Origin: a virus
Lineage: Duplodnaviria > Caudoviricetes
Length of the DNA stretch: 64,000 nucleotides
Virus record (IMG/VR): IMGVR_UViG_3300011577_000001
Direction: 5' to 3' (one strand)
Both the position numbers and the translations under genes were made by a program. Positions 2,615 to 17,782 of this stretch are shown here, piece by piece. Positions within the stretch are counted from its first letter, which is position 1. Each line of letters begins with the position of its first letter. The notes beneath the pieces were generated by a model. That model was not told the DNA's origin. It ran no database searches and saw only the letters and a list, made by a program, of their open reading frames with translations.

Positions 2615-2658
2615 GAAACGGGGAAGCCGCAAGGCCTCCCCGTTTCCCTTTATGCCGC
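2615..2658. terminator. Hairpin terminator between convergent genes
   Basis: GAAACGGGGA-AGCC-GCAA-GGCC-TCCCCGTTTC followed by CCTTTATGCCG. Confidence 0.7.
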
Positions 2659-4878
2659 GGTAGACGCTGGAACAAAGTCCGAAACCAACTTGGTATTATT
2701 GTCGTTAGACAAGAACACGCCGAGCGATTCCAAGATCAGATAGAACGGTCGGACTGTAGAGTATACCAGTTTGCGAATGTTCATTGCTGACAGCACTTCT
2801 TTTGGTAGACCTGTCAACTCCACTACGTCCTTAGGCAGCAGCAACGTGGTAGCGTTGGTTTTGCCAGCGTAAGTCGCAGTAAGGGTTTCTTTGATCTGCG
2901 GATCTTCGATACCATCCAACCAGAGTTGCAGTGCCGTTTTGTTCGGCAGGTCGAGGGATACCTTGATCGCTTGGTACGGCGGCTTTGGAGCCTCGCCGTA
3001 TTTTGGACGGAACACTCGCTCCCACAGGAGGTAGTGTTGGTATGGTGACTGGCCTGGGTTTGCATAAGCAGCCGGGTCTTTCACCGAAGTCCGTGCCAGG
3101 TAAGTCGATTCAGCACGCATCACAGAACCGATAATGCCGTGTTCGATATCTGCCACACGTTGCATGATCTCGGTGATGCTGATCTTCTTACCGTCGATTA
3201 CAGTATCCATGATCTCGCACATGGTGGCCGTAACCTGTTTCATGATTGCTGGAGGACAGTTCGAGTCTTTGAGGTAAACCCCTTTGATCTCTTCTTCCAA
3301 CTCAGCAAACACGTTCCCTTCTTTGGCTGCCTTGTAGGCGTAGTAATGCTTAGCCATCGAAGTCAGCGAGAACACCGAGAAAGCAAACTCGTTCTTCATC
3401 GCCAGTACGTTCAGCTTGTCTGGTACCACACCGAGTGTAGTCGACAGCATAGCCAACACGTGGATGATCGACTGCGTAGCCAGGTAAACCATGGTGTAGT
3501 CCACGGCAAAAGCGGTTTCGCTAAAGTCAATCTTACCGGTGTACCACTCAACCCAGTTCTGCACGGTGAAGATCGTGGAGTCTGTGTCGGAGGTGATCGC
3601 AACGTGACGGACAGAATCTCGAATCCATGCAACCGAAGCAGGCATGTTGTCGGATACCCAAAACGCTTTGATCAGGTACTGGTAGTCGTTCAGTACAGCG
3701 TGGATGTTCTTGATGGTCGCACCGATCAAGCAGTAGTTCGCAGGATTGACTTCCAACAAACGACCCAGACCCAAGCCTTGTAGCTCCTTAGCGCACAGGA
3801 GGCTCACAAACGCTTTTAAGTCTGCATCCATACCCTTGACATAGACTTTCGCTTCTTCAAGCTCCAGCGGCACCTCAGCCTTCATAGAGAGGCGTGCCAT
3901 GAACACCCGCATTGGTCCGTCGTTGTACTTCGCTAGATGCCAGCAATCGCCGACATACGCAAAGGCCGAACGTTGCAGATCGTTCATCCCTTCAACCAGC
4001 TTACGGATTTCCGCAATCTGACTTTTGTTGTTCCAGTAGTGGTGGGTGGAGTACAGGATCAGCTCCATGACTTCATCCACGGTCGGAGCACGGAAACCGT
4101 ACAGCGACATGGCTTTCTCGATCAACTCATAGTCAACATGACCAATGATGCTGACGATGTTAGCCTTCACTACATCAGGACACCAGTAGTGACGGTTACC
4201 GGCCAAGAACTTCTCGTTGTTGGCGTTCCCCAAACTGGTAGCCACTCGACAGGTCGAAGTCAGGCTCGAGTGAGCAGACTTGTTGTGCAGAATGGTGGAG
4301 GTCGACGCCTGTGCCCCGGACAGACTGTTGTTGGCAATCTTGTACGTAGTCTGTTCGTTCTCCTTGAGTTCCGCCAGTTCTTCCATCTGAGTGGCGTGTC
4401 TGCGAAACTTTGCCGCGGCAACGGTATCGCCTGATTTCTCAGCCTCGGCTGCTTTCAGGTTCGATTCTTGTTGCTCCATCTGTGCATTGTGACCTTCCTT
4501 CTTCACAGCACCCCGGCCGACGATGTTACCGGTGATGTATTCCGACAACAGGGACGGAATAACGTCTGGGTGTTCGTACACAGTCATGGACGGTGCAAAC
4601 AACCAGTTGTTGTCCTTGATGTCCTTGAGGTAAGTTGAGTAGGTCATCTCCGTACGCTCACGGTCACCGACTTTGTTGCGGTGCAGGCAGTACAGAGCTG
4701 GGTCTTTGATCTCGAATTTACCACCAGGACCTGTCACGCGATGAATGTAAGCCTGACAGTCTTCCAACGGCTTCCCCGTACGGACATGCAAGAATATCGC
4801 CATGTCTCGACGGTAGTTAGCCAGAATATCGAGGTCTCGCTTATAAGCGGACGCTGGCTTGATGAAATGGTTTTCCAT
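2650..4878 (-). CDS. Family-B DNA polymerase, polymerase subunit (phiKZ gp50-like)
   Basis: Motif B-like KIANNSLSG, motif C TSDTDSTIF, AKHYY; no exonuclease domain recognised, consistent with the split polymerase of phiKZ-like phages. Start placed at MENHF after RBS GGGAG. Confidence 0.88.
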   Translation of the reverse strand: MENHFIKPASAYKRDLDILANYRRDMAIFLHVRTGKPLEDCQAYIHRVTGPGGKFEIKDPALYCLHRNKVGDRERTEMTYSTYLKDIKDNNWLFAPSMTVYEHPDVIPSLLSEYITGNIVGRGAVKKEGHNAQMEQQESNLKAAEAEKSGDTVAAAKFRRHATQMEELAELKENEQTTYKIANNSLSGAQASTSTILHNKSAHSSLTSTCRVATSLGNANNEKFLAGNRHYWCPDVVKANIVSIIGHVDYELIEKAMSLYGFRAPTVDEVMELILYSTHHYWNNKSQIAEIRKLVEGMNDLQRSAFAYVGDCWHLAKYNDGPMRVFMARLSMKAEVPLELEEAKVYVKGMDADLKAFVSLLCAKELQGLGLGRLLEVNPANYCLIGATIKNIHAVLNDYQYLIKAFWVSDNMPASVAWIRDSVRHVAITSDTDSTIFTVQNWVEWYTGKIDFSETAFAVDYTMVYLATQSIIHVLAMLSTTLGVVPDKLNVLAMKNEFAFSVFSLTSMAKHYYAYKAAKEGNVFAELEEEIKGVYLKDSNCPPAIMKQVTATMCEIMDTVIDGKKISITEIMQRVADIEHGIIGSVMRAESTYLARTSVKDPAAYANPGQSPYQHYLLWERVFRPKYGEAPKPPYQAIKVSLDLPNKTALQLWLDGIEDPQIKETLTATYAGKTNATTLLLPKDVVELTGLPKEVLSAMNIRKLVYSTVRPFYLILESLGVFLSNDNNTKLVSDFVPASTAA

Positions 4879-4970
4879 TAGTGCTCCCGAAAGCGGTAGT
4901 CCCACATTCTATTACCCACGGACAGATTTAAATACAGACGTCATAAAAGGAGGCCGAAGCCTCCCTCTAT

Positions 4971-9713: not shown

Positions 9714-9800
9714 TGGTACCCGAAGTCGGACTCGAACCGACATGGCTCAAGGCCGTCGCATTTTAAGTGCGGTGCGTCTCACCAATTTCACCATTCGGGC
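9714..9800 (-). tRNA. tRNA-Leu(TAA)
   Basis: Acceptor GCCCGAA/TTCGGGT, loop CT-TAA-AA, long variable arm, TTCGAGT, encoded CCA. Confidence 0.9.
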
Positions 9801-9885
9801 AAATGGGTGCCTTCTCTACTTTGCCAGGTAAGGGTTCTTTGTTTCCACGCGCAGATCCACTCATTGACGAGAGAAGACATTGAAA

Positions 9886-9984
9886 GGGGTCCCCTGATGG
9901 ATTCGAACCACCGACCGTCGCATCCATTCTGTCCCAGGTTTGGACCAAGATGCACAACTCTAACCGACTGAGTTTAAGGAGACC
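9886..9984 (-). ncRNA. tRNA-like RNA with a 24-nt hairpin-containing insert in place of the anticodon loop
   Basis: Acceptor GGTCTCCT/AGGGGACC; D arm AACTC-AGTCGGTTA-GAGTT; stem GCATC/GATGC; T arm GGTGG-TTCGAAT-CCATC; no encoded CCA. Confidence 0.65.
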
Positions 9985-10061
9985 ATCAACTGAATTCCCT
10001 GGGGAACCTTAATCGACTTGGAAGCCATTCAAAGTTTGATGGGAGACTCCCCAAGGGAAAG

Positions 10062-10149
10062 TGGCGGAAGGACAGGGACTCGAACCCTGGGACCTGTTAC
10101 AGTCGGCGGTTTTCAAGACCGCTGCAATACGCCGCTATGCGACCCTTCC
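10062..10149 (-). tRNA. tRNA-Ser(TGA)
   Basis: GCGGT-CT-TGA-AA-ACCGC, long variable arm, G73-CCA. Confidence 0.92.
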
Positions 10150-10174
10150 GAAAATCAAGCCAGGGCTATTCCCT

Positions 10175-10461
10175 GGAGTCACTCCCATGGCTAGGCACCA
10201 TGACCGATTAGAGCGAGGTCCTAAGCGAAACCGATCGGCACGGTTACTCGCTTACTCTTTCGAGTACGGATGTCTAGGCGTCTCGTTGTGTGAGCAACGA
10301 TCCACTCGCCCGCAGGACAGGGCCACCAGCAGGGCAGGCGCTTGGTGTTCCTTGGTCAGGCTTTCGCCCGAGACAGCAGTTTCAGCATTCCTTTCGGGAT
10401 ATGCTTAGTCTTCGCTTTACGACGAGGACTGTAGAACGGAAAACCAGGCATGGCTCTCTCC
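10175..10461 (-). ncRNA. Candidate ~290-nt multi-helix RNA between two tRNA-Ser genes
   Basis: Ends pair (GGAG/CTCC and CCATG-C-CTGG/CTAG-C-CATGG); three GAAA-capped hairpins on the minus strand. Confidence 0.55.
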
Positions 10462-10472
10462 TTCTTAGAAAG

Positions 10473-10560
10473 TGGCAGTAGGTGAGAGATTCGAACTCTC
10501 GTGGCTGTTACACCAACACGCTTTCCAGGCGTGCCTTTTCGACCGCTCAAGCAACCTACT
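10473..10560 (-). tRNA. tRNA-Ser(GGA)
   Basis: CACGC-CT-GGA-AA-GCGTG, long variable arm, G73-CCA. Confidence 0.9.
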
Positions 10561-10621
10561 GTGAAAGGTAAAGCAAAGTTCAATCAATACCCGGTGTGTG
10601 GTATCTTTTCGTTTACAGATC

Positions 10622-10709
10622 TGGTGGCCCAGCCAGGATTTCGGGTTGTACCTGGAATGCTACCTTGGAGGGTAGAGTTATACCTTTCGGCGTTTTTAAC
10701 TATTGGGCC
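10622..10709 (-). ncRNA. Non-canonical tRNA-like RNA (6-nt anticodon loop, enlarged D and T loops, CCA end)
   Basis: GGCCCAA/CTGGGCC-A-CCA; D stem GTTA/TAAC; CTACC-CTCCAA-GGTAG; CCAGG-(13 nt)-CCTGG. Confidence 0.6.
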
Positions 10710-10809
10710 TTTCTTACCACACCACTGATTGAATCCCGCGAGGGAACTTCCAAACAGATAGACAAGATTCCTTTGTAACGCGTATTGTATTCGCTCTCTT
10801 TCAAACGAG

Positions 10810-10889
10810 TGGCCAGGGGAGCCTTCGGACCCTACTCCCACGTGGAACCCCGGTTGGTGGGGCTGCTTTAGAGCTTTTAGCGACTGGCC
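10810..10889 (-). ncRNA. Divergent cloverleaf-like RNA candidate
   Basis: GGCCAG/CTGGCC-A; GCT/AGC arm; AGCCCC-ACCAACC-GGGGTT; GGGAGT/GCTCCC; canonical D- and T-loop residues absent. Confidence 0.35.
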
Positions 10890-11071
10890 TTTCTACGTTA
10901 CCGCTGTCTATCAAAATCACAAGCAGTAGATTTCACCGTACCGTCGGCTGTGATGTTACTTTCTACTTGCCTAGGCTTTCGCCTTGATTCCCTGCATCCA
11001 GACTCGCGTTACTGGATACTGCTTGTGATCTTTGTCAACCATCTTGTCGAGGACGACAACACAGTCGAACA

Positions 11072-11147
11072 TGGCACGCACCCAGGGAGTCGAACCCCGA
11101 ACCTACGGATTTGGAATCCGTTGCTCTGCCAATTGAGCTAGGCACGT
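11072..11147 (-). tRNA. tRNA-Trp(CCA)
   Basis: ACGGA-TT-CCA-AA-TCCGT, A1-U72, G73-CCA. Confidence 0.92.
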
Positions 11148-11154
11148 GTAAAAC

Positions 11155-11230
11155 TGGTAGCACCAAGTGGGCTCGAACCACCGACCTCACCCTTATCAGG
11201 GGTGCGCTCTACCAACTGAGCTATAGCGCT
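11155..11230 (-). tRNA. tRNA-Ile(GAT)
   Basis: CACCC-CT-GAT-AA-GGGTG, canonical cloverleaf, CCA. Confidence 0.95.
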
Positions 11231-11237
11231 ATGAAAC

Positions 11238-11609
11238 TTAACCGCGACGGTTATAGTTGACGCGCTGGACTTCCAGCTCGACATACAATTCCATCGGGTA
11301 TTGAGAAGGCAGTTCTACCGAGACACGCGCGATGGCAGTCTCAGGGTTGACGAATACCGCAAACGGAGCATTGGCGAAGGAGCCCAACACGCCTTGCATC
11401 TGGACACCACGCTCGGTTTCGCTCTTGATCGGGCTGGTGATGTTGCAGGCAATGTCCACACCGTCAACGGTGGTGACACGCACTGCTTTCACCGACTCGA
11501 TGGAGTCAGTACTGTCGAACTCTTCGGTCTGTGTAGCAATCAGACCAAACAGGTTGACTTGGCTAACCTTGAGCGGCAAACGAACGTGGTCAACAGGATA
11601 CTTGTACAT
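11238..11609 (-). CDS. Hypothetical protein; stand-alone paralog of the C-terminal domain of the upstream Tad2 fusion
   Basis: Shares VRxPL-x4-5-NLFxL...DxIxSVxxVxxxTxDG...N and EL(F/Y)xxLx(I/V)...NRR with the C-terminal half of 11619-12254. Confidence 0.75.
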   Translation of the reverse strand: MYKYPVDHVRLPLKVSQVNLFGLIATQTEEFDSTDSIESVKAVRVTTVDGVDIACNITSPIKSETERGVQMQGVLGSFANAPFAVFVNPETAIARVSVELPSQYPMELYVELEVQRVNYNRRG

Positions 11610-11618
11610 GACAGCCCC

Positions 11619-12254
11619 TTATTCAGAACGACGGTTGCGTTGGCCGTACTCGATGCGAAGAACCGCGAACAGCTCAACCGAATTCTCGGCAGCAGATGAA
11701 CGCGTTGGCATGCAACCCCATTTCTGGGTGTCAACTTGGATGTTGACGTGTTGCTTACCGTTGAGGCGATCCGCAAAGGTCTTCAAGCGAGTCTCAGTAC
11801 GGTGTCCCGGTACTTCGACGACGTTGCTCTTGACGACCAACCCATCAGCAGTCTCCAGGTGAACGACTTCCACCGAGAAGATAGCATCAGGACCCTCCAA
11901 CACGGCGCCGGTTTCACCAGCCAACGTGAAGAGGTTTTGTTCAACGCCGTTCAAAGGAACGCGCACGTCAACCTTGGCAACGTAATCCTCAGCATCAAGG
12001 ACTACCCAGTCGTCGGCAAGGATGTCGGACTGAGAAGCAACCCACGGGACAAAATCACCGTTGTGCGCTTTCAGACCCAGCCAAGGTCGCAGAGTCGGTG
12101 CAGGGTCCTTACGAACGTTGAGACCAACGGTGCGAGCACCCACGTCATAATGGCCAGAGCCAACCATGACGACCCACATGCCTTTACCGTTCCAGCCTTC
12201 GCGTGTGGCGCGAGAGCCATGCTTCAAAGCCGTAAGGGCTTGACCGAACTCCAT
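11619..12254 (-). CDS. tad2: DUF2829/Tad2-family anti-defence sponge domain fused to an unknown C-terminal domain
   Basis: MEFGQALTALKHGSRATREGWNGKGMW...WVASQSDILADDW is the DUF2829/Tad2 signature. Start at 12254 (RBS CAGGAG); the longer ORF call runs into tRNA-Ser. Confidence 0.8.
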   Translation of the reverse strand: MEFGQALTALKHGSRATREGWNGKGMWVVMVGSGHYDVGARTVGLNVRKDPAPTLRPWLGLKAHNGDFVPWVASQSDILADDWVVLDAEDYVAKVDVRVPLNGVEQNLFTLAGETGAVLEGPDAIFSVEVVHLETADGLVVKSNVVEVPGHRTETRLKTFADRLNGKQHVNIQVDTQKWGCMPTRSSAAENSVELFAVLRIEYGQRNRRSE

Positions 12255-12275
12255 GTGAAGCTCCTGTTGTGAATG

Positions 12276-12361
12276 TGGCGGTGGGCGAAGGATTCGAACC
12301 TTCGGGGCCGCAACCCTCTCCCTTAGCAAGGGAGTGCGATAGACCGCTCTGCCAGCCCACC
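12276..12361 (-). tRNA. tRNA-Ser(GCT)
   Basis: CTCCC-TT-GCT-AA-GGGAG, variable arm, G73-CCA. Confidence 0.92.
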
Positions 12362-12384
12362 CATTTGAAAAGATGAAACGAAAT

Positions 12385-12461
12385 TGGCTGGGATAGTTGG
12401 GCTCGAACCAACGACCTGGTGATTAACAGTCACCCGCTACTACCAACTGAGCTATATCCCA
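12385..12461 (-). tRNA. tRNA-Asn(GTT)
   Basis: GGTGA-CT-GTT-AA-TCACC, U1-A72, G73-CCA. Confidence 0.93.
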
Positions 12462-12964
12462 TTATAACGAATACCAAGAGCTACCCGACGAACCGTGTCT
12501 TTACCGATTTCAAACTCCCGAGCAATTGCTCGATAGCTCATGGTACCGACCAGTTCAAGGATAGCCTTGACTGACTCTTCATCAAGCGCAGCATGTGGGC
12601 TGTCAAACCCTTTCTTGCCTTCATACAAACCTAAGGCTTGCGCATGATCAATATTACCTTGATGCGTTACCCACTCCAAGTTATCCCACCGGTTATTTGT
12701 CTTATCCGTGTCCTTATGGTTCACGAAGGGAAGATTCAACGGGTTAGGGACAAAAGCCTTGGCCACTTGTACATGAGCCCTTAAACAGAACGACTTACCT
12801 TTCCTTCCTCCTATCTTGGAGGCGTGAGTAAGATAGCCATTATGGTTGGGCGTCAGTGCCAAATCTTGGAACGTGCGAATGCTAAACAGTGTCCCGAAAT
12901 TGCCGATCATGAAGAGATCAGGGTAGTCAGGACATTCCGTGAAGACTTCAAATTCATACGACAT
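12452..12964 (-). CDS. Free-standing HNH homing endonuclease with C-terminal HTH
   Basis: H...VAKAFVPNP...VNHKDTDKTNNRWDNLEWVTHQGNIDHA; HTH-like SYRAIAREFEIGKDTVRR; early promoter at ~12990-13012. Confidence 0.9.
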   Translation of the reverse strand: MSYEFEVFTECPDYPDLFMIGNFGTLFSIRTFQDLALTPNHNGYLTHASKIGGRKGKSFCLRAHVQVAKAFVPNPLNLPFVNHKDTDKTNNRWDNLEWVTHQGNIDHAQALGLYEGKKGFDSPHAALDEESVKAILELVGTMSYRAIAREFEIGKDTVRRVALGIRYNGI

Positions 12965-13036
12965 GTACTACTCCAGTAAGTGTTACTTCCTGTAAGTAAT
13001 ATACATCTGAACTATTTTAGTCTCCTAGGAAGGAGA

Positions 13037-13113
13037 TGGCGCCTCCGAGGGAACTTGAACCGTCGACCCCCGGCGTGACAGGCCGGTGCTCTAACCAACT
13101 GAGCTACGGAAGC
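13037..13113 (-). tRNA. tRNA-Asp(GTC), poorly paired T stem
   Basis: CCGGC-CT-GTC-AC-GCCGG, G73-CCA; T stem GACGG/TCCCT has mismatches. Confidence 0.8.
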
Positions 13114-13307
13114 GAAAACGTCCTGAGGAAAATGGACTCTGCAATCACCCAGACTGTGCCTGTAGGTGCATCGCGTGTAGGCTCAAGGTTCATGTAGACA
13201 ACCATGGGCCAAGAACAATCCTGAGCGTGTCGACCGACGTGTAGCACTCGGAAGCGCAACCCGCTAGGAGAGAGGTACTCTCGATCCTTCTCGACAAACT
13301 CTAACAT
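13104..13307 (-). CDS. DUF1653-like small protein
   Basis: Y...G..FRV...GRH....MVVY..L......VWV....F..TF pattern; RBS GAGGA. Confidence 0.65.
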   Translation of the reverse strand: MLEFVEKDREYLSPSGLRFRVLHVGRHAQDCSWPMVVYMNLEPTRDAPTGTVWVIAESIFLRTFSLP

Positions 13308-13328
13308 TGTTCATTCCTCTAATTCGGC

Positions 13329-13558
13329 TCCGGCTTGCTTCCCACCGCTTCGGTGGTTCACTGTACAACTCACCTGTAAACCAGACGACCCGCCGGAGAG
13401 GTCTTTAACTAACTACGTCAGCACACCTAAGGTTCCGAAGAAGGTAGGTACTTGATGTAGATCCACTGGAGTACTAGCTCTCGTCGACGTTGGCACTAAC
13501 GAGATTGGGTGATCCTCCCGGCGGGGACATCCGCCGAGTTAATGCACAGTGAGCCGGA
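13329..13558 (-). ncRNA. Candidate ~230-nt rod-like structured RNA
   Basis: Nested helices TCCGGCT/AGCCGGA, TCACTGTGC/GTACAGTGA, AACTC/GAGTT and CCCGCCGG(G)AGG/CCT(CT)CCGGCGGG, with two apical hairpins (one UUCG); strand inferred from context. Confidence 0.6.
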
Positions 13559-13869
13559 TTTTCGTAACGCACAAAGGCAAACGACACGGCATGGCAAAGG
13601 ATCGTAAGGGTGGTCTCCCCGTAGTTCTCCCACGAGGTTAAGGGACCGCTGCGGCGCTATGCTAGATGCTTTTGTCCGCTGCGACAATCCAAGACCGTTG
13701 TTTGACACGCCTCGCCTCATTGGGTTGGAATTCCCGAGACTTATTTTCCCTGACTGATGACGCTCTCAGCATCGACCGAGCGGGTTACTCCTTTCCAAGG
13801 GAGCACCTATCTAAGTCTTACAAGGTAAAACCACCGTATCGCCAGCAAGGGTCGTCGCGGTGTTAAAAG

Positions 13870-13956
13870 TGGTGGTCGAAGGATGGAATTGAACCTCTAG
13901 CACAAGGCGGCGCGTTTACAGCGCGCTGACAGTAGCCATCTGTCTCTACAACGACC
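13870..13956 (-). tRNA. tRNA-Tyr(GTA), atypical or degenerate
   Basis: GCGCG-CT-GTA-AA-CGCGC, A73-CCA; two U-U mismatches in the acceptor; irregular D and T arms. Confidence 0.65.
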
Positions 13957-13963
13957 GTGAAAC

Positions 13964-14094
13964 TGGTGCCCCGTTACTCTATTACGAGTGTCTGTTAGAC
14001 TGACCCCGTGAGAGGGGAGTTTGGGTTTGACCGGCTCTACATTCCCACCCCGAAGGGTTCACAATGCGATCTCCGATGACCTCAGACCAGGACA
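13964..14094 (-). ncRNA. CCA-ended RNA with acceptor-like stem, T-like hairpin and enclosed structured domain
   Basis: TGTCCTG/CGGGGCA-CCA; GTCTG/CAGAC; ACTC-GTAATA-GAGT; internal ACCC-TTCG-GGGT. Confidence 0.5.
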
Positions 14095-14107
14095 TGAAAC
14101 TAGAAGA

Positions 14108-14240
14108 TGGCCCCGCTACGTGGACTCGAACCACGGACCTCCCGCTGGCACGCGCATTCAAACGTCATCACTGCCGGAAGGGCTGCTAGCGACGTAACCG
14201 CATGTCTAACGAGTGCTCTAACCAACTGAGCTATAGCCGG
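14108..14240 (-). ncRNA. tRNA-like RNA with a 73-nt extended anticodon arm
   Basis: Canonical D arm TAGCTCAGTTGGTTAGAGC; AGGTC variable loop; T arm CGTGG-TTCGAGT-CCACG; G73-CCA; anticodon arm replaced by a long interrupted hairpin. Confidence 0.75.
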
Positions 14241-16816: not shown

Positions 16817-17782
16817 TTACAAGACCAGGAAGTCGTTGGTGGTCTGGTCTTTCTCGGTCACGATTGCTTTGGCCGAAGCACGGCCTTCGCGACGCTCCAC
16901 GAAACCTTCCACCGTACGGTTGAGGGTGTCGTAAGACTGACCCAGGAACTGGGTCGAGATCACGTAGTGCAGCTCGCTGACACCTTCGACCGGGGTCTGG
17001 AAGAAACCAGCGCAGGAGTATTCCGGCACCGGAGTTTGCAGTTGCGGTTGATCGCGGTCGGCGTACAGGCTGGCGATGGCGATCGGGTCCAGGATTTCCT
17101 TGACCTTCTCGGCGTCGCTGTAGATGTCCAGCAGGGCCAGTTGAGCTTCGACCGAAGTGGACTTGTTGAAGCGCAGCCAGTGCAGTACGTCCATGGTGTC
17201 CAGCTCGGCGTTCTGGCGAGAGGCCAGGTAGCGCAGGCAGGTGATGGCGAAGTGCAGTTGACCGTCGATGGTCGAACGGGTGGTGCCCTCGCCACTGTGG
17301 CGGTAGAAGGCAACGACCGGAACCTTGATACCGTTGGAGATCGCCGACAGCGACTTCAAGGTGTTCAGGCTGTTCTGCGCAGTGATAGTGGATTCGGCGG
17401 AACCCGCGCTGACCACGACCACGGCTTTGCCGCGCTCCAGGAGTTCGCGGACGATCAGCGGACCGATCACCGAACCCGAGCCACCCGAGGCGGAGAACAC
17501 GACGATGTTGAAATCTTCTGGTGGCTGAGCCAGCAGGATTTGCTTGATGCTGTCTGCGATGGCCTGGTGGTTTTCGCGACGGACCTTACCGGAACCGTCG
17601 GTGCCTTCCAAGACGAAGATCGCTTCGGACGGGATCGAAGAATCCAGGTTGGAACGGCTGGTGTCTACGAAGGAGACCAGCGGGGTGGCGAAACCTGCGA
17701 CGTCTTTCTGACCGAGGTAACGCTTGGCGATGTTGTTACCCAGACCGCCTGCGCCGTAAATACGAACTTTGCCCTGAGACAT
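16817..17782 (-). CDS. phuZ: PhuZ phage tubulin
   Basis: IYGAGGLGNNI, DTS, DGSGK, tubulin signature SASGGSGS, ELDxxD, C-terminal DFLVL knuckle. Confidence 0.95.
   Translation of the reverse strand: MSQGKVRIYGAGGLGNNIAKRYLGQKDVAGFATPLVSFVDTSRSNLDSSIPSEAIFVLEGTDGSGKVRRENHQAIADSIKQILLAQPPEDFNIVVFSASGGSGSVIGPLIVRELLERGKAVVVVSAGSAESTITAQNSLNTLKSLSAISNGIKVPVVAFYRHSGEGTTRSTIDGQLHFAITCLRYLASRQNAELDTMDVLHWLRFNKSTSVEAQLALLDIYSDAEKVKEILDPIAIASLYADRDQPQLQTPVPEYSCAGFFQTPVEGVSELHYVISTQFLGQSYDTLNRTVEGFVERREGRASAKAIVTEKDQTTNDFLVL

What the first reader, a model, noticed from the sequence alone, without database searches (positions are those of the whole stretch)
9886..9984. Second tRNA-like RNA with an expanded anticodon arm and an 8-bp acceptor
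Seen: 8-bp acceptor GGTCTCCT/AGGGGACC, 5-bp D stem, canonical T loop TTCGAAT and anticodon stem GCATC/GATGC. The stem encloses 24 nt containing a second hairpin, GTCC-AAACCTG-GGAC. No CCA is encoded, unlike the canonical tRNAs here. Inference: two dissimilar examples of the same design in one cluster suggest a functional class rather than random decay.
Basis: partly seen in the sequence, partly recalled or inferred. Interest (0 to 1): 0.72.

Follow-up and report, generated by a model that had tools for sequence, protein, structure and literature searches.

The report
Orphan phage tRNA look-alike, anticodon disabled
A giant phage's tRNA gene cluster holds a tRNA-shaped gene, built on a threonine-tRNA frame, whose decoding loop is swollen to 24 bases so it almost certainly cannot read codons; it occurs in this phage only, so it may be a working tRNA mimic or a recently broken gene.

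Summary
On the minus strand at 9886-9984 lies a full cloverleaf: a 7-bp acceptor (8 with an optional G:C), a 5-bp D stem, a GG D-loop, a TTCGAAT T-loop and a 5-6-bp anticodon stem. That stem closes 24 nt instead of 7. CCA is not encoded, although every canonical tRNA of this phage clade encodes it.

ARAGORN finds the gene only in intron mode, as tRNA-Thr(GGU) plus 17 nt. Such calls are rare in shuffled sequence (1 in 2.56 Mb).

No 17-nt excision restores a proper loop, because position 37 is never a purine. A complete close relative lacks a splicing endonuclease, RtcB, the searched RNA-ligase families and a CCA-adding enzyme. The inner hairpin is no better than chance (12% of shuffles).

The element is an orphan. 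Its only other copy is 100% identical, and four related sequences carry a different, CCA-less, tRNA-Ala-derived gene with an irregular anticodon arm in the same slot.

A second element (14108-14240) is conserved, with 9 compensatory pairs. The "class" idea is therefore plausible for the island but unproven here.

Best reading: a non-decoding, tRNA-processed look-alike (functional about 0.45, relic about 0.35). This scan has noted similar anticodon-less phage tRNA look-alikes on other DNA.

The parts
9886..9984 (-). Whole tRNA-like element (99 nt as given; the tRNA body is 9888-9984, or 9888-9983 with a 7-bp acceptor)
   Evidence: Sequence. MFE cloverleaf. ARAGORN intron mode calls tRNA-Thr(ggt) i(43,17) at c[9886,9983]. 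Rfam gives only a sub-threshold tRNA-Sec match of 20.9 bits, E=1.2.
9977..9984 (-). Acceptor stem, 5' strand GGTCTCCT (the first G is the optional 8th pair, G-1:C73)
9888..9895 (-). Acceptor stem, 3' strand AGGGGACC, followed by C-C-T-T (9887-9884); no CCA
9956..9974 (-). D arm: 5-bp stem AACTC/GAGTT and 9-nt loop AGTCGGTTA carrying the GG that pairs with the T-loop in tRNAs
9920..9953 (-). Expanded anticodon arm: stem GCATC/GATGC enclosing 24 nt
9925..9941 (-). The 17 nt (AAACCTGGGACAGAATG) that ARAGORN treats as an insert after loop position 38. The preceding TTGGTCC (9948-9942) is a Thr(GGU)-like loop remnant with C at positions 37 and 38.
   Evidence: deleting these 17 nt makes default ARAGORN call an 81-nt tRNA-Thr(GGU).
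9931..9945 (-). Inner hairpin GTCC-AAACCTG-GGAC inside the 24-nt loop
   Evidence: Predicted in the MFE fold. Not beyond chance: 12% of loop shuffles do as well.
9896..9912 (-). T arm: GGTGG / TTCGAAT / CCATC
   Evidence: The T-arm sequence is generic; the same 22-mer occurs in bacterial-type tRNA-Asn genes.
9801..9885 (-). Conserved spacer between the element and tRNA-Leu(UAA). It marks the right-hand border of the replaced cassette and is closed by an 11-bp stem.
9985..10061 (-). Variable spacer between tRNA-Ser(UGA) and the element. It holds a small hairpin shared with L003 and a possible remnant of the tRNA-like gene that L003 carries there.
   Evidence: alignment; the remnant reading is inference.
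14108..14240 (-). The other expanded-arm tRNA-like RNA of the cluster (tRNA-Val(GAC)-like body, 56-58-nt insert, CCA encoded). It is the comparison case for the 'class' argument.

Best explanation
The element is a tRNA-derived gene, closest in form to tRNA-Thr(GGU). Its acceptor, D and T arms are intact, but its anticodon loop has grown from 7 to 24 nt.

It is probably transcribed with the minus-strand tRNA operon. Its intact acceptor/T-arm/elbow would let host RNase P and 3' nucleases cut it out.

It cannot act as a decoder. The arm is about 19 nt too long. The Thr-like GGU is partly buried in the inner helix. No loop with U33 and a purine at position 37 exists or can be restored.

It is a lineage-specific cassette. 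It sits in a slot that, in every relative, holds another CCA-less tRNA-like gene with an irregular anticodon arm. My committed reading is that it works, if at all, through its tRNA body. Two candidate roles are a tRNA-shaped decoy or competitor for proteins that bind tRNA bodies, such as host tRNA-targeting defence enzymes, and a processing handle in the RNA island. It would not work through decoding.

Shown: anatomy, tRNA derivation, orphan status, slot replacement. Inferred: transcription and processing. Speculative: the decoy or handle role.
For: - The cloverleaf has all four stems intact and carries the tertiary-contact motifs: the GG D-loop and the TTCGAAT T-loop.
- ARAGORN calls it only when an insert is allowed. 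Removing 17 nt gives a default-mode tRNA-Thr(GGU). The false-call rate is about 1 per 2.56 Mb of shuffled sequence.
- Rfam's tRNA model does not report it, and tRNA-Sec scores only 20.9 bits.
- By direct reading of the 24-nt loop, none of the eight possible 17-nt excisions gives a purine at position 37. ARAGORN's version has the loop UUGGUCC.
- It has the same strand and spacing as the 8 canonical tRNAs.
- The borders of the replaced segment coincide with the gene borders, between conserved flanks that are 85-98% identical to the relative G002.
- The slot in L002, L024/L025 and L003 holds a tRNA-Ala-derived gene without CCA. Its loop differs between near-identical genomes, and its arm can close into a 5-bp stem with a triloop. 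It has 4 compensatory pairs.
- L003 also has a tRNA body whose arm is a 9-bp stem capped by UUCG.
- The 131-134-nt expanded-arm tRNA-like RNA is conserved in 7 sequences with 9 compensatory pairs. Non-decoding tRNA shapes are therefore maintained by selection in this clade.
Against: - There is no homologue, so there is no covariation or conservation evidence for this element. The only other copy is identical.
- The inner hairpin is not beyond chance, and the overall fold z-score is -1.43.
- Unlike the conserved large element and all canonical tRNAs, it lacks CCA. The relatives encode no CCA-adding enzyme, so maturation would depend on the host.
- The window's cluster is visibly losing genes, which fits decay.
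- There is no expression data.
- The loop has no complementarity to anything in the 64-kb window beyond chance.
Confidence: 0.45

Rival explanations
1. It is a dead gene. A foreign tRNA-Thr(GGU) gene was acquired into the slot and then broken by a 17-nt insertion or duplication in the anticodon loop. It is carried neutrally until it is deleted, and any RNA made from it has no role.
For: - Orphan status.
- The inner hairpin is no better than chance.
- CCA is absent although the clade's working tRNAs all encode it, which fits a foreign origin.
- There is active gene loss in this very cluster: a precise deletion of tRNA-His, and loss of Gln, Gly(CCC) and the 153-nt element.
- A possible 50-nt remnant of another tRNA-like gene lies just upstream.
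- A single recent insertion would leave all stems intact, so their intactness does not argue against decay.
Against: - Phage genomes usually purge useless DNA.
- All 24 stem pairs and the elbow motifs are intact.
- The slot is never empty in any relative, and its occupants lack CCA and have irregular anticodon arms.
- The clade demonstrably maintains an expanded-arm tRNA shape by selection.
Confidence: 0.35
2. It is a working tRNA-Thr(GGU) interrupted by a short intron. The insert is removed after transcription, as proposed for the 'enigmatic introns' of Lak megaphage tRNAs, and CCA is then added by the host.
For: - ARAGORN's intron mode parses it this way.
- The excised version is a default-mode tRNA-Thr.
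- Published precedent exists for insert-bearing tRNA genes in huge phages (PMC6784885).
- None of the related clusters examined has a tRNA-Thr.
Against: - No excision of 17 nt yields a purine at position 37. ARAGORN's product has C37 and C38 (direct reading).
- There is no bulge-helix-bulge arrangement. The loop forms a 3x6 internal loop plus a hairpin.
- 17 nt is far too short for a self-splicing intron.
- The complete close relative G002, and three other relatives, have no splicing endonuclease, RtcB, Rnl2-type ligase or CCA-adding enzyme. The T4 Rnl1 search was uninformative, because the control genomes did not respond.
- No known bacterial pathway removes such inserts (established knowledge).
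Confidence: 0.07
3. It is a special decoder: a tRNA-Sec-like or tRNA-His-like molecule (8-bp acceptor, G-1:C73), or an expanded-loop tRNA that reads unusual codons.
For: - An 8/5 acceptor/T-stem arrangement can be drawn, as in bacterial tRNA-Sec, and the best Rfam match is tRNA-Sec.
- G-1:C73 is the tRNA-His hallmark, and the window has lost the tRNA-His gene its relatives carry.
Against: - The tRNA-Sec score is 20.9 bits against a cut-off of 47.
- There is no UCA or GUG triplet in the loop.
- The D arm is 5 bp with a 9-nt loop, not 6 bp with 4 nt.
- There is no long variable arm.
- It has no sequence similarity to the relatives' tRNA-His.
- A 24-nt loop is far beyond the 8-9-nt loops of known frameshift-suppressor tRNAs.
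- The 8th pair has a sizeable chance probability.
Confidence: 0.03

Closest known systems
Insert-bearing tRNA genes ('enigmatic introns') of Lak megaphages (Devoto et al. 2019, PMC6784885)
   Same: Both are tRNA genes of very large phages, lie in tRNA-rich regions, and are detected only when an insert in the anticodon loop is allowed. The removal mechanism is unknown in both.
   Different: The Lak inserts are conserved, often identical, across genomes and cohorts, and one may itself encode a tRNA. Here the insert is 17 nt and unique to one genome, and its removal does not give a canonical anticodon loop.
Phage T4 small stable RNAs RNAC and RNAD (species 1 and 2) of the T4 tRNA region
   Same: They are small non-decoding RNAs encoded inside a phage tRNA cluster and made with the tRNAs, with function still unknown (PMC3014915; PMC9697503).
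   Different: No sequence relation was tested or expected, and no Rfam family exists for them. The T4 RNAs are conserved among T4-like phages and are known to accumulate. Expression here is unknown.
The 131-134-nt tRNA-Val-like RNA of the same cluster (window 14108-14240) and the slot occupants of relatives (L002 4901-4976, L024 12936-13011, L003 4369-4444, L003 4156-4234)
   Same: They come from the same RNA island and strand. Each is a tRNA body with a non-standard anticodon arm. The slot occupants also lack CCA.
   Different: The sequences are unrelated. Those elements have orthologues with compensatory changes, and this one has none. The large element encodes CCA.
Phage tRNAs with altered anticodon loops that escape host anticodon nucleases (van den Berg et al. 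2023, PMC10264068; T5 tRNA-Lys versus PARIS, PMC11464382)
   Same: They are phage-encoded tRNA-shaped molecules whose anticodon-loop changes are read as adaptation to tRNA-targeting defence. This is the conceptual basis for the decoy idea.
   Different: Those are still working decoders with point changes in a 7-nt loop. This element cannot decode, and no link to any nuclease has been shown.
tRNA-like processing signals such as the eukaryotic MALAT1 mascRNA (from my own knowledge, not tested here)
   Same: It is a tRNA-shaped module with an aberrant anticodon region, used as an RNase P / RNase Z handle rather than for decoding.
   Different: It is eukaryotic and unrelated in sequence. The comparison is an analogy only.

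Membership tests
Canonical elongator tRNA (Rfam RF00005) | Cloverleaf with acceptor, D and T arms and the elbow motifs | tested here: met
   MFE fold and direct reading; ARAGORN intron mode.
Canonical elongator tRNA (Rfam RF00005) | 7-nt anticodon loop with U33 and a purine at 37; score above the family threshold | tested here: not met
   The loop is 24 nt. The element is not reported by default ARAGORN or by the Rfam tRNA model at gathering score. No RF00005 row survives at E<=10 in the 5-kb scan.
Bacterial tRNA-Sec (RF01852) | 8/5 acceptor/T arrangement, 6-bp D stem with 4-nt loop, long variable arm, UCA anticodon, score of at least 47 bits | tested here: not met
   Only the 8/5 arrangement can be drawn. 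The D stem is 5 bp with a 9-nt loop, the variable region is 6 nt, there is no UCA, and the score is 20.9 bits with E=1.2.
tRNA-His | G-1:C73 plus GUG anticodon | tested here: not met
   G-1:C73 is possible, but there is no GUG in the loop. There is no similarity to the relatives' tRNA-His.
Intron-bearing tRNA of the archaeal/eukaryal type | Bulge-helix-bulge (or relaxed) motif at the exon-intron borders; excision restores a canonical loop; splicing endonuclease and ligase available | tested here: not met
   The fold gives a 3x6 internal loop plus a hairpin. Every 17-nt excision leaves a pyrimidine at position 37 (direct reading). PF01974, PF01139 and PF09414 are absent from 4 related phage records, including the complete G002. 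Host enzymes are not testable.
Group I intron in a tRNA anticodon loop (bacterial/cyanobacterial type) | Self-splicing ribozyme core of roughly 200 nt or more | tested here: not met
   The insert is 17 nt, and there is no Rfam intron match in the window.
tmRNA | tRNA-Ala-like domain (G3:U70) plus a tag reading frame | tested here: not met
   The ARAGORN tmRNA search of the window is negative. Position 3:70 is C-G or U-A.
Bacterial/phage Y RNA (YrlA, RF02553) | Ro-binding stem with a permuted tRNA-like domain; Rfam match | tested here: not met
   There is no Rfam match at gathering score or at E<=10 around the cluster. The ends here close the acceptor stem, so the molecule is not permuted.
Phage tRNA-cluster small RNAs of unknown role (T4 RNAC/RNAD kind) | Non-decoding RNA gene embedded in a phage tRNA operon, on the tRNA strand | tested here: met
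   Location and strand; non-decoding anatomy.
Phage tRNA-cluster small RNAs of unknown role (T4 RNAC/RNAD kind) | Stable accumulation of the RNA during infection | not testable with these tools
   No transcriptome is available.

The most novel reading that the evidence does not exclude
The element is a working member of a still undescribed class of phage RNAs: tRNA bodies with deliberately disabled anticodon arms. On this reading the class is kept in a dedicated slot of a jumbo-phage RNA island and swapped as cassettes between lineages. Its members would act as decoys or competitors for host proteins that recognise tRNA shape (for instance tRNA-cleaving defence nucleases), or as RNase P handles that release neighbouring structured RNAs.
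Probability: 0.3. Interest if true: 0.65.

Novelty: new member of a known kind. Interest (0 to 1): 0.33.

Why it matters
Phage tRNA clusters are usually read only as codon supplements or, more recently, as spare parts against host anticodon nucleases. This island suggests they also hold tRNA-shaped RNAs that cannot decode, and some of these are clearly kept by selection. If such RNAs act as decoys or processing handles, that would be a new layer of phage-host conflict or phage RNA processing. It would also explain many "pseudo-tRNA" calls in large phage genomes.

This particular element adds an example of how fast the slot turns over, but by itself it cannot prove function.

Tried and rejected
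- **Homologues of the element.** Searches found nothing real. These were blastn against 50,697 phage records, which returned T-arm hits only; exact and gapped patterns in IMG/VR; and a gapped pattern in GTDB genomes. The single hits L017 and L026 are coding-region or other non-tRNA chance matches.
- **T-arm 22-mer.** It hit 71 viral contigs, but these are ordinary tRNA-Asn/Arg genes unrelated in the other arms.
- **First metagenome pattern.** It was too specific and found nothing.
- **Conserved downstream spacer as a pattern.** Apart from the L002 contig it pulled three chance matches; the two I read lie inside a protein gene of other jumbo phages.
- **Window's own genome.** It is not held, and metagenome records could not be searched as handles.
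- **Antisense or seed idea.** The loop has no complement or repeat in the window beyond chance 10-mers.
- **Hybrid-gene idea.** I considered a 5' half from an L003-type UUCG tRNA-like gene joined to a 3' half from the slot gene. I rejected it because both halves of the anticodon stem pair perfectly and similarity to either is weak.
- **tRNA-Sec, tRNA-His, tmRNA and Y RNA.** All rejected on their defining features (see membership test).
- **T4 Rnl1 family search.** Uninformative, because no control genome responded.

Full report
**Where it is.** The window comes from a jumbo phage.
- Its DNA polymerase (2650-4905, minus strand) is 44% identical to those of Xanthomonas phages Xoo-sp14 and LucasX. 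It also matches about 300 phiKZ-like and other jumbo phages.
- A PhuZ-type tubulin lies at 16817-17782.
- A minus-strand tRNA cluster spans about 9714-14240. ARAGORN's default mode finds 8 tRNAs there. Rfam finds 7 at gathering score and the same 8 in E-value mode.
- Neither tool reports anything at 9886-9984 at its normal threshold.

**The observation.**
- Read on the minus strand, the element has exactly the features listed, and the coordinates are verified. They are an 8-bp acceptor (GGTCTCCT/AGGGGACC), a TA linker, a 5-bp D stem with loop AGTCGGTTA, G26 and an anticodon stem GCATC/GATGC (plus a U.G pair). The remaining features are a 24-nt loop, a 6-nt variable region and a T arm GGTGG/TTCGAAT/CCATC.
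- The MFE fold is this cloverleaf.
- The tail is C-C-T-T. In contrast, all canonical tRNAs of the window and of relatives L002, L003 and L024 encode CCA.
- Deleting those 17 nt in silico gives a default-mode tRNA-Thr call.
- In 40 shuffled copies of the window (2.56 Mb), intron mode made a single call, so the tRNA-likeness is real.
- The finer claims are weaker. The 8th acceptor pair is only G-1:C73, and ARAGORN draws 7 bp. The inner hairpin GTCC-AAACCTG-GGAC gains -8.6 kcal/mol, which 12% of shuffled loops equal or beat. The whole-molecule z-score is -1.43.

**Can it decode?**
- The arm is 36 nt instead of 17.
- In the fold, the Thr-like G35 and U36 are paired inside the inner helix. The 7-nt tip loop AAACCUG has A where U33 should be.
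- I enumerated the eight ways of removing 17 contiguous nt from the loop. The products are CAGAAUG, UAGAAUG, UUGAAUG (twice), UUGGAUG, UUGGUUG, UUGGUCG and UUGGUCC. None combines U33 with a purine at position 37, which tRNAs reading ANN codons virtually always have (established knowledge).
- There is no bulge-helix-bulge motif, and 17 nt cannot be a ribozyme.
- In four related phage records, including the complete G002, I found no splicing endonuclease, RtcB, Rnl2-type ligase or CCA-adding enzyme. The Rnl1 search was uninformative.
- Splicing is therefore unlikely, though Lak megaphages show that unexplained tRNA inserts exist in huge phages (PMC6784885).

**Relatives.**
- The polymerase retrieved four IMG/VR contigs: L001 and L002 at 96% amino-acid identity, L003 at 81% and L004 at 39%.
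- A pattern from the large tRNA-like element retrieved further metagenome contigs. A protein look-up then gave L024 and L025 with the full cluster.
- The flanks of the slot are well conserved. These are tRNA-Ser(UGA) upstream, and an 85-nt spacer plus tRNA-Leu(UAA) downstream.
- The slot content differs. L002, L024/L025 and L003 carry a 76-nt gene with a class-II-like D arm and Ala-type features: G3.U70 in two of them, and UGC or AGC in the loop. It has no CCA, and Rfam scores it at 36.5-39.7 bits.
- Its "anticodon" call flips between Ala and Ile with a single base change between near-identical genomes. U33 is not conserved. The consensus fold closes the arm as a 5-bp stem with a triloop. Four pairs show compensatory change, although with three sequences the canonical register cannot be excluded.
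- L003 additionally has a tRNA body whose arm is a 9-bp stem capped by UUCG.
- The window's element is unrelated in sequence to all of these.
- Its only other occurrence is a 100% identical 5.6-kb stretch in a Logan assembly of SRR1749264.
- Pattern scans of IMG/VR and GTDB genomes, and blastn against phage records, found no parent or sibling. The T-arm alone matches generic tRNA-Asn genes.

**The "class" argument.**
- The other expanded-arm gene (14108-14240) is present in seven sequences. Nine pairs show compensatory change, spread over the acceptor, D, T and insert helices, and CCA is encoded. Position 33 of its Val-like loop varies (U, A or G), which argues against decoding.
- This clade therefore does maintain non-decoding tRNA shapes by selection, and the slot studied here is never empty. 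That raises the prior that the orphan is used.
- On the other side, the window's cluster has lost tRNA-His by a precise deletion. It has also lost Gln, Gly(CCC) and a 153-nt element. A possible remnant of an L003-type gene lies just upstream of the element. Decay and turnover are active.

**Verdict.**
- About 0.85 that this is a tRNA-derived gene that does not decode.
- Within that, I lean slightly to a processed tRNA-shaped RNA used through its body, as a decoy or handle (0.45), over a neutral relic (0.35).
- An intron-bearing tRNA-Thr gets 0.07 and a special decoder 0.03.
- The closest published things are the Lak "enigmatic introns" and the T4 RNAC/RNAD small RNAs of the tRNA region, whose roles remain unknown (PMC3014915, PMC9697503). 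The decoy idea borrows from work on phage tRNAs and anticodon nucleases (PMC10264068).
- Earlier notes of this scan describe similar anticodon-less tRNA look-alikes in other phages. I treat those as leads, not as evidence.

Noticed in passing
window 9801-9885 (-): The spacer between the element and tRNA-Leu is more conserved than the slot itself across the window, L002, L024 and L003. It is closed by an 11-bp stem with one compensatory pair, so it looks like a small structured RNA or a processing element.
   Followed up: partly
window 11619-12329 (-): A Tad2-like (anti-Thoeris sponge) domain protein (PF11195, 82.8 bits) is encoded inside the tRNA cluster. The same gene sits at the same place in L024 and L025.
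   Followed up: partly
window 12150-12290 (-), compared with L002 1860-1932 and L024 9906-9978: The window has lost the tRNA-His(GUG) gene that relatives carry right after tRNA-Ser(GCU). The junction looks like a precise deletion between the two CCA-plus-spacer ends. tRNA-Gln, tRNA-Gly(CCC) and a 153-nt insert-bearing tRNA-like element of relatives are also missing.
   Followed up: partly
L003 4156-4234 (+): A tRNA body with a canonical acceptor, D and T arms. Its anticodon arm is a 9-bp stem capped by a UUCG tetraloop (Rfam tRNA 49.7 bits; ARAGORN 'tRNA-???'). No CCA is encoded.
   Followed up: partly
L002 3978-4130 (+), L024 11770-11923 (+): A 153-154-nt element that ARAGORN parses as tRNA-Val(GAC) with a 61-nt insert. 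It is conserved between two relatives, absent from the window, and lacks CCA.
   Followed up: no
window 13874-13956 (-): A divergent class-II tRNA-Tyr(GUA)-like gene with an odd D arm. Default ARAGORN misses it, it appears only at a relaxed threshold, and Rfam gives a tRNA-Sec match of 20.3 bits. Relatives have a normally scored tRNA-Tyr at the same place.
   Followed up: no
L032 3991-4077 (-) (IMGVR_UViG_3300049215_000227, 176.5 kb): An unrelated large viral contig carries an 87-nt tRNA body with encoded CCA. Its anticodon arm folds as a long stem of about 10 bp with a 6-nt loop (ARAGORN: Asn with an 11-nt insert). This is another expanded-arm tRNA look-alike.
   Followed up: no
window 16817-17782 (-): A PhuZ/TubZ-type phage tubulin (PF22334 and PF00091), which suggests a nucleus-forming or spindle-using jumbo phage lineage.
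   Followed up: partly
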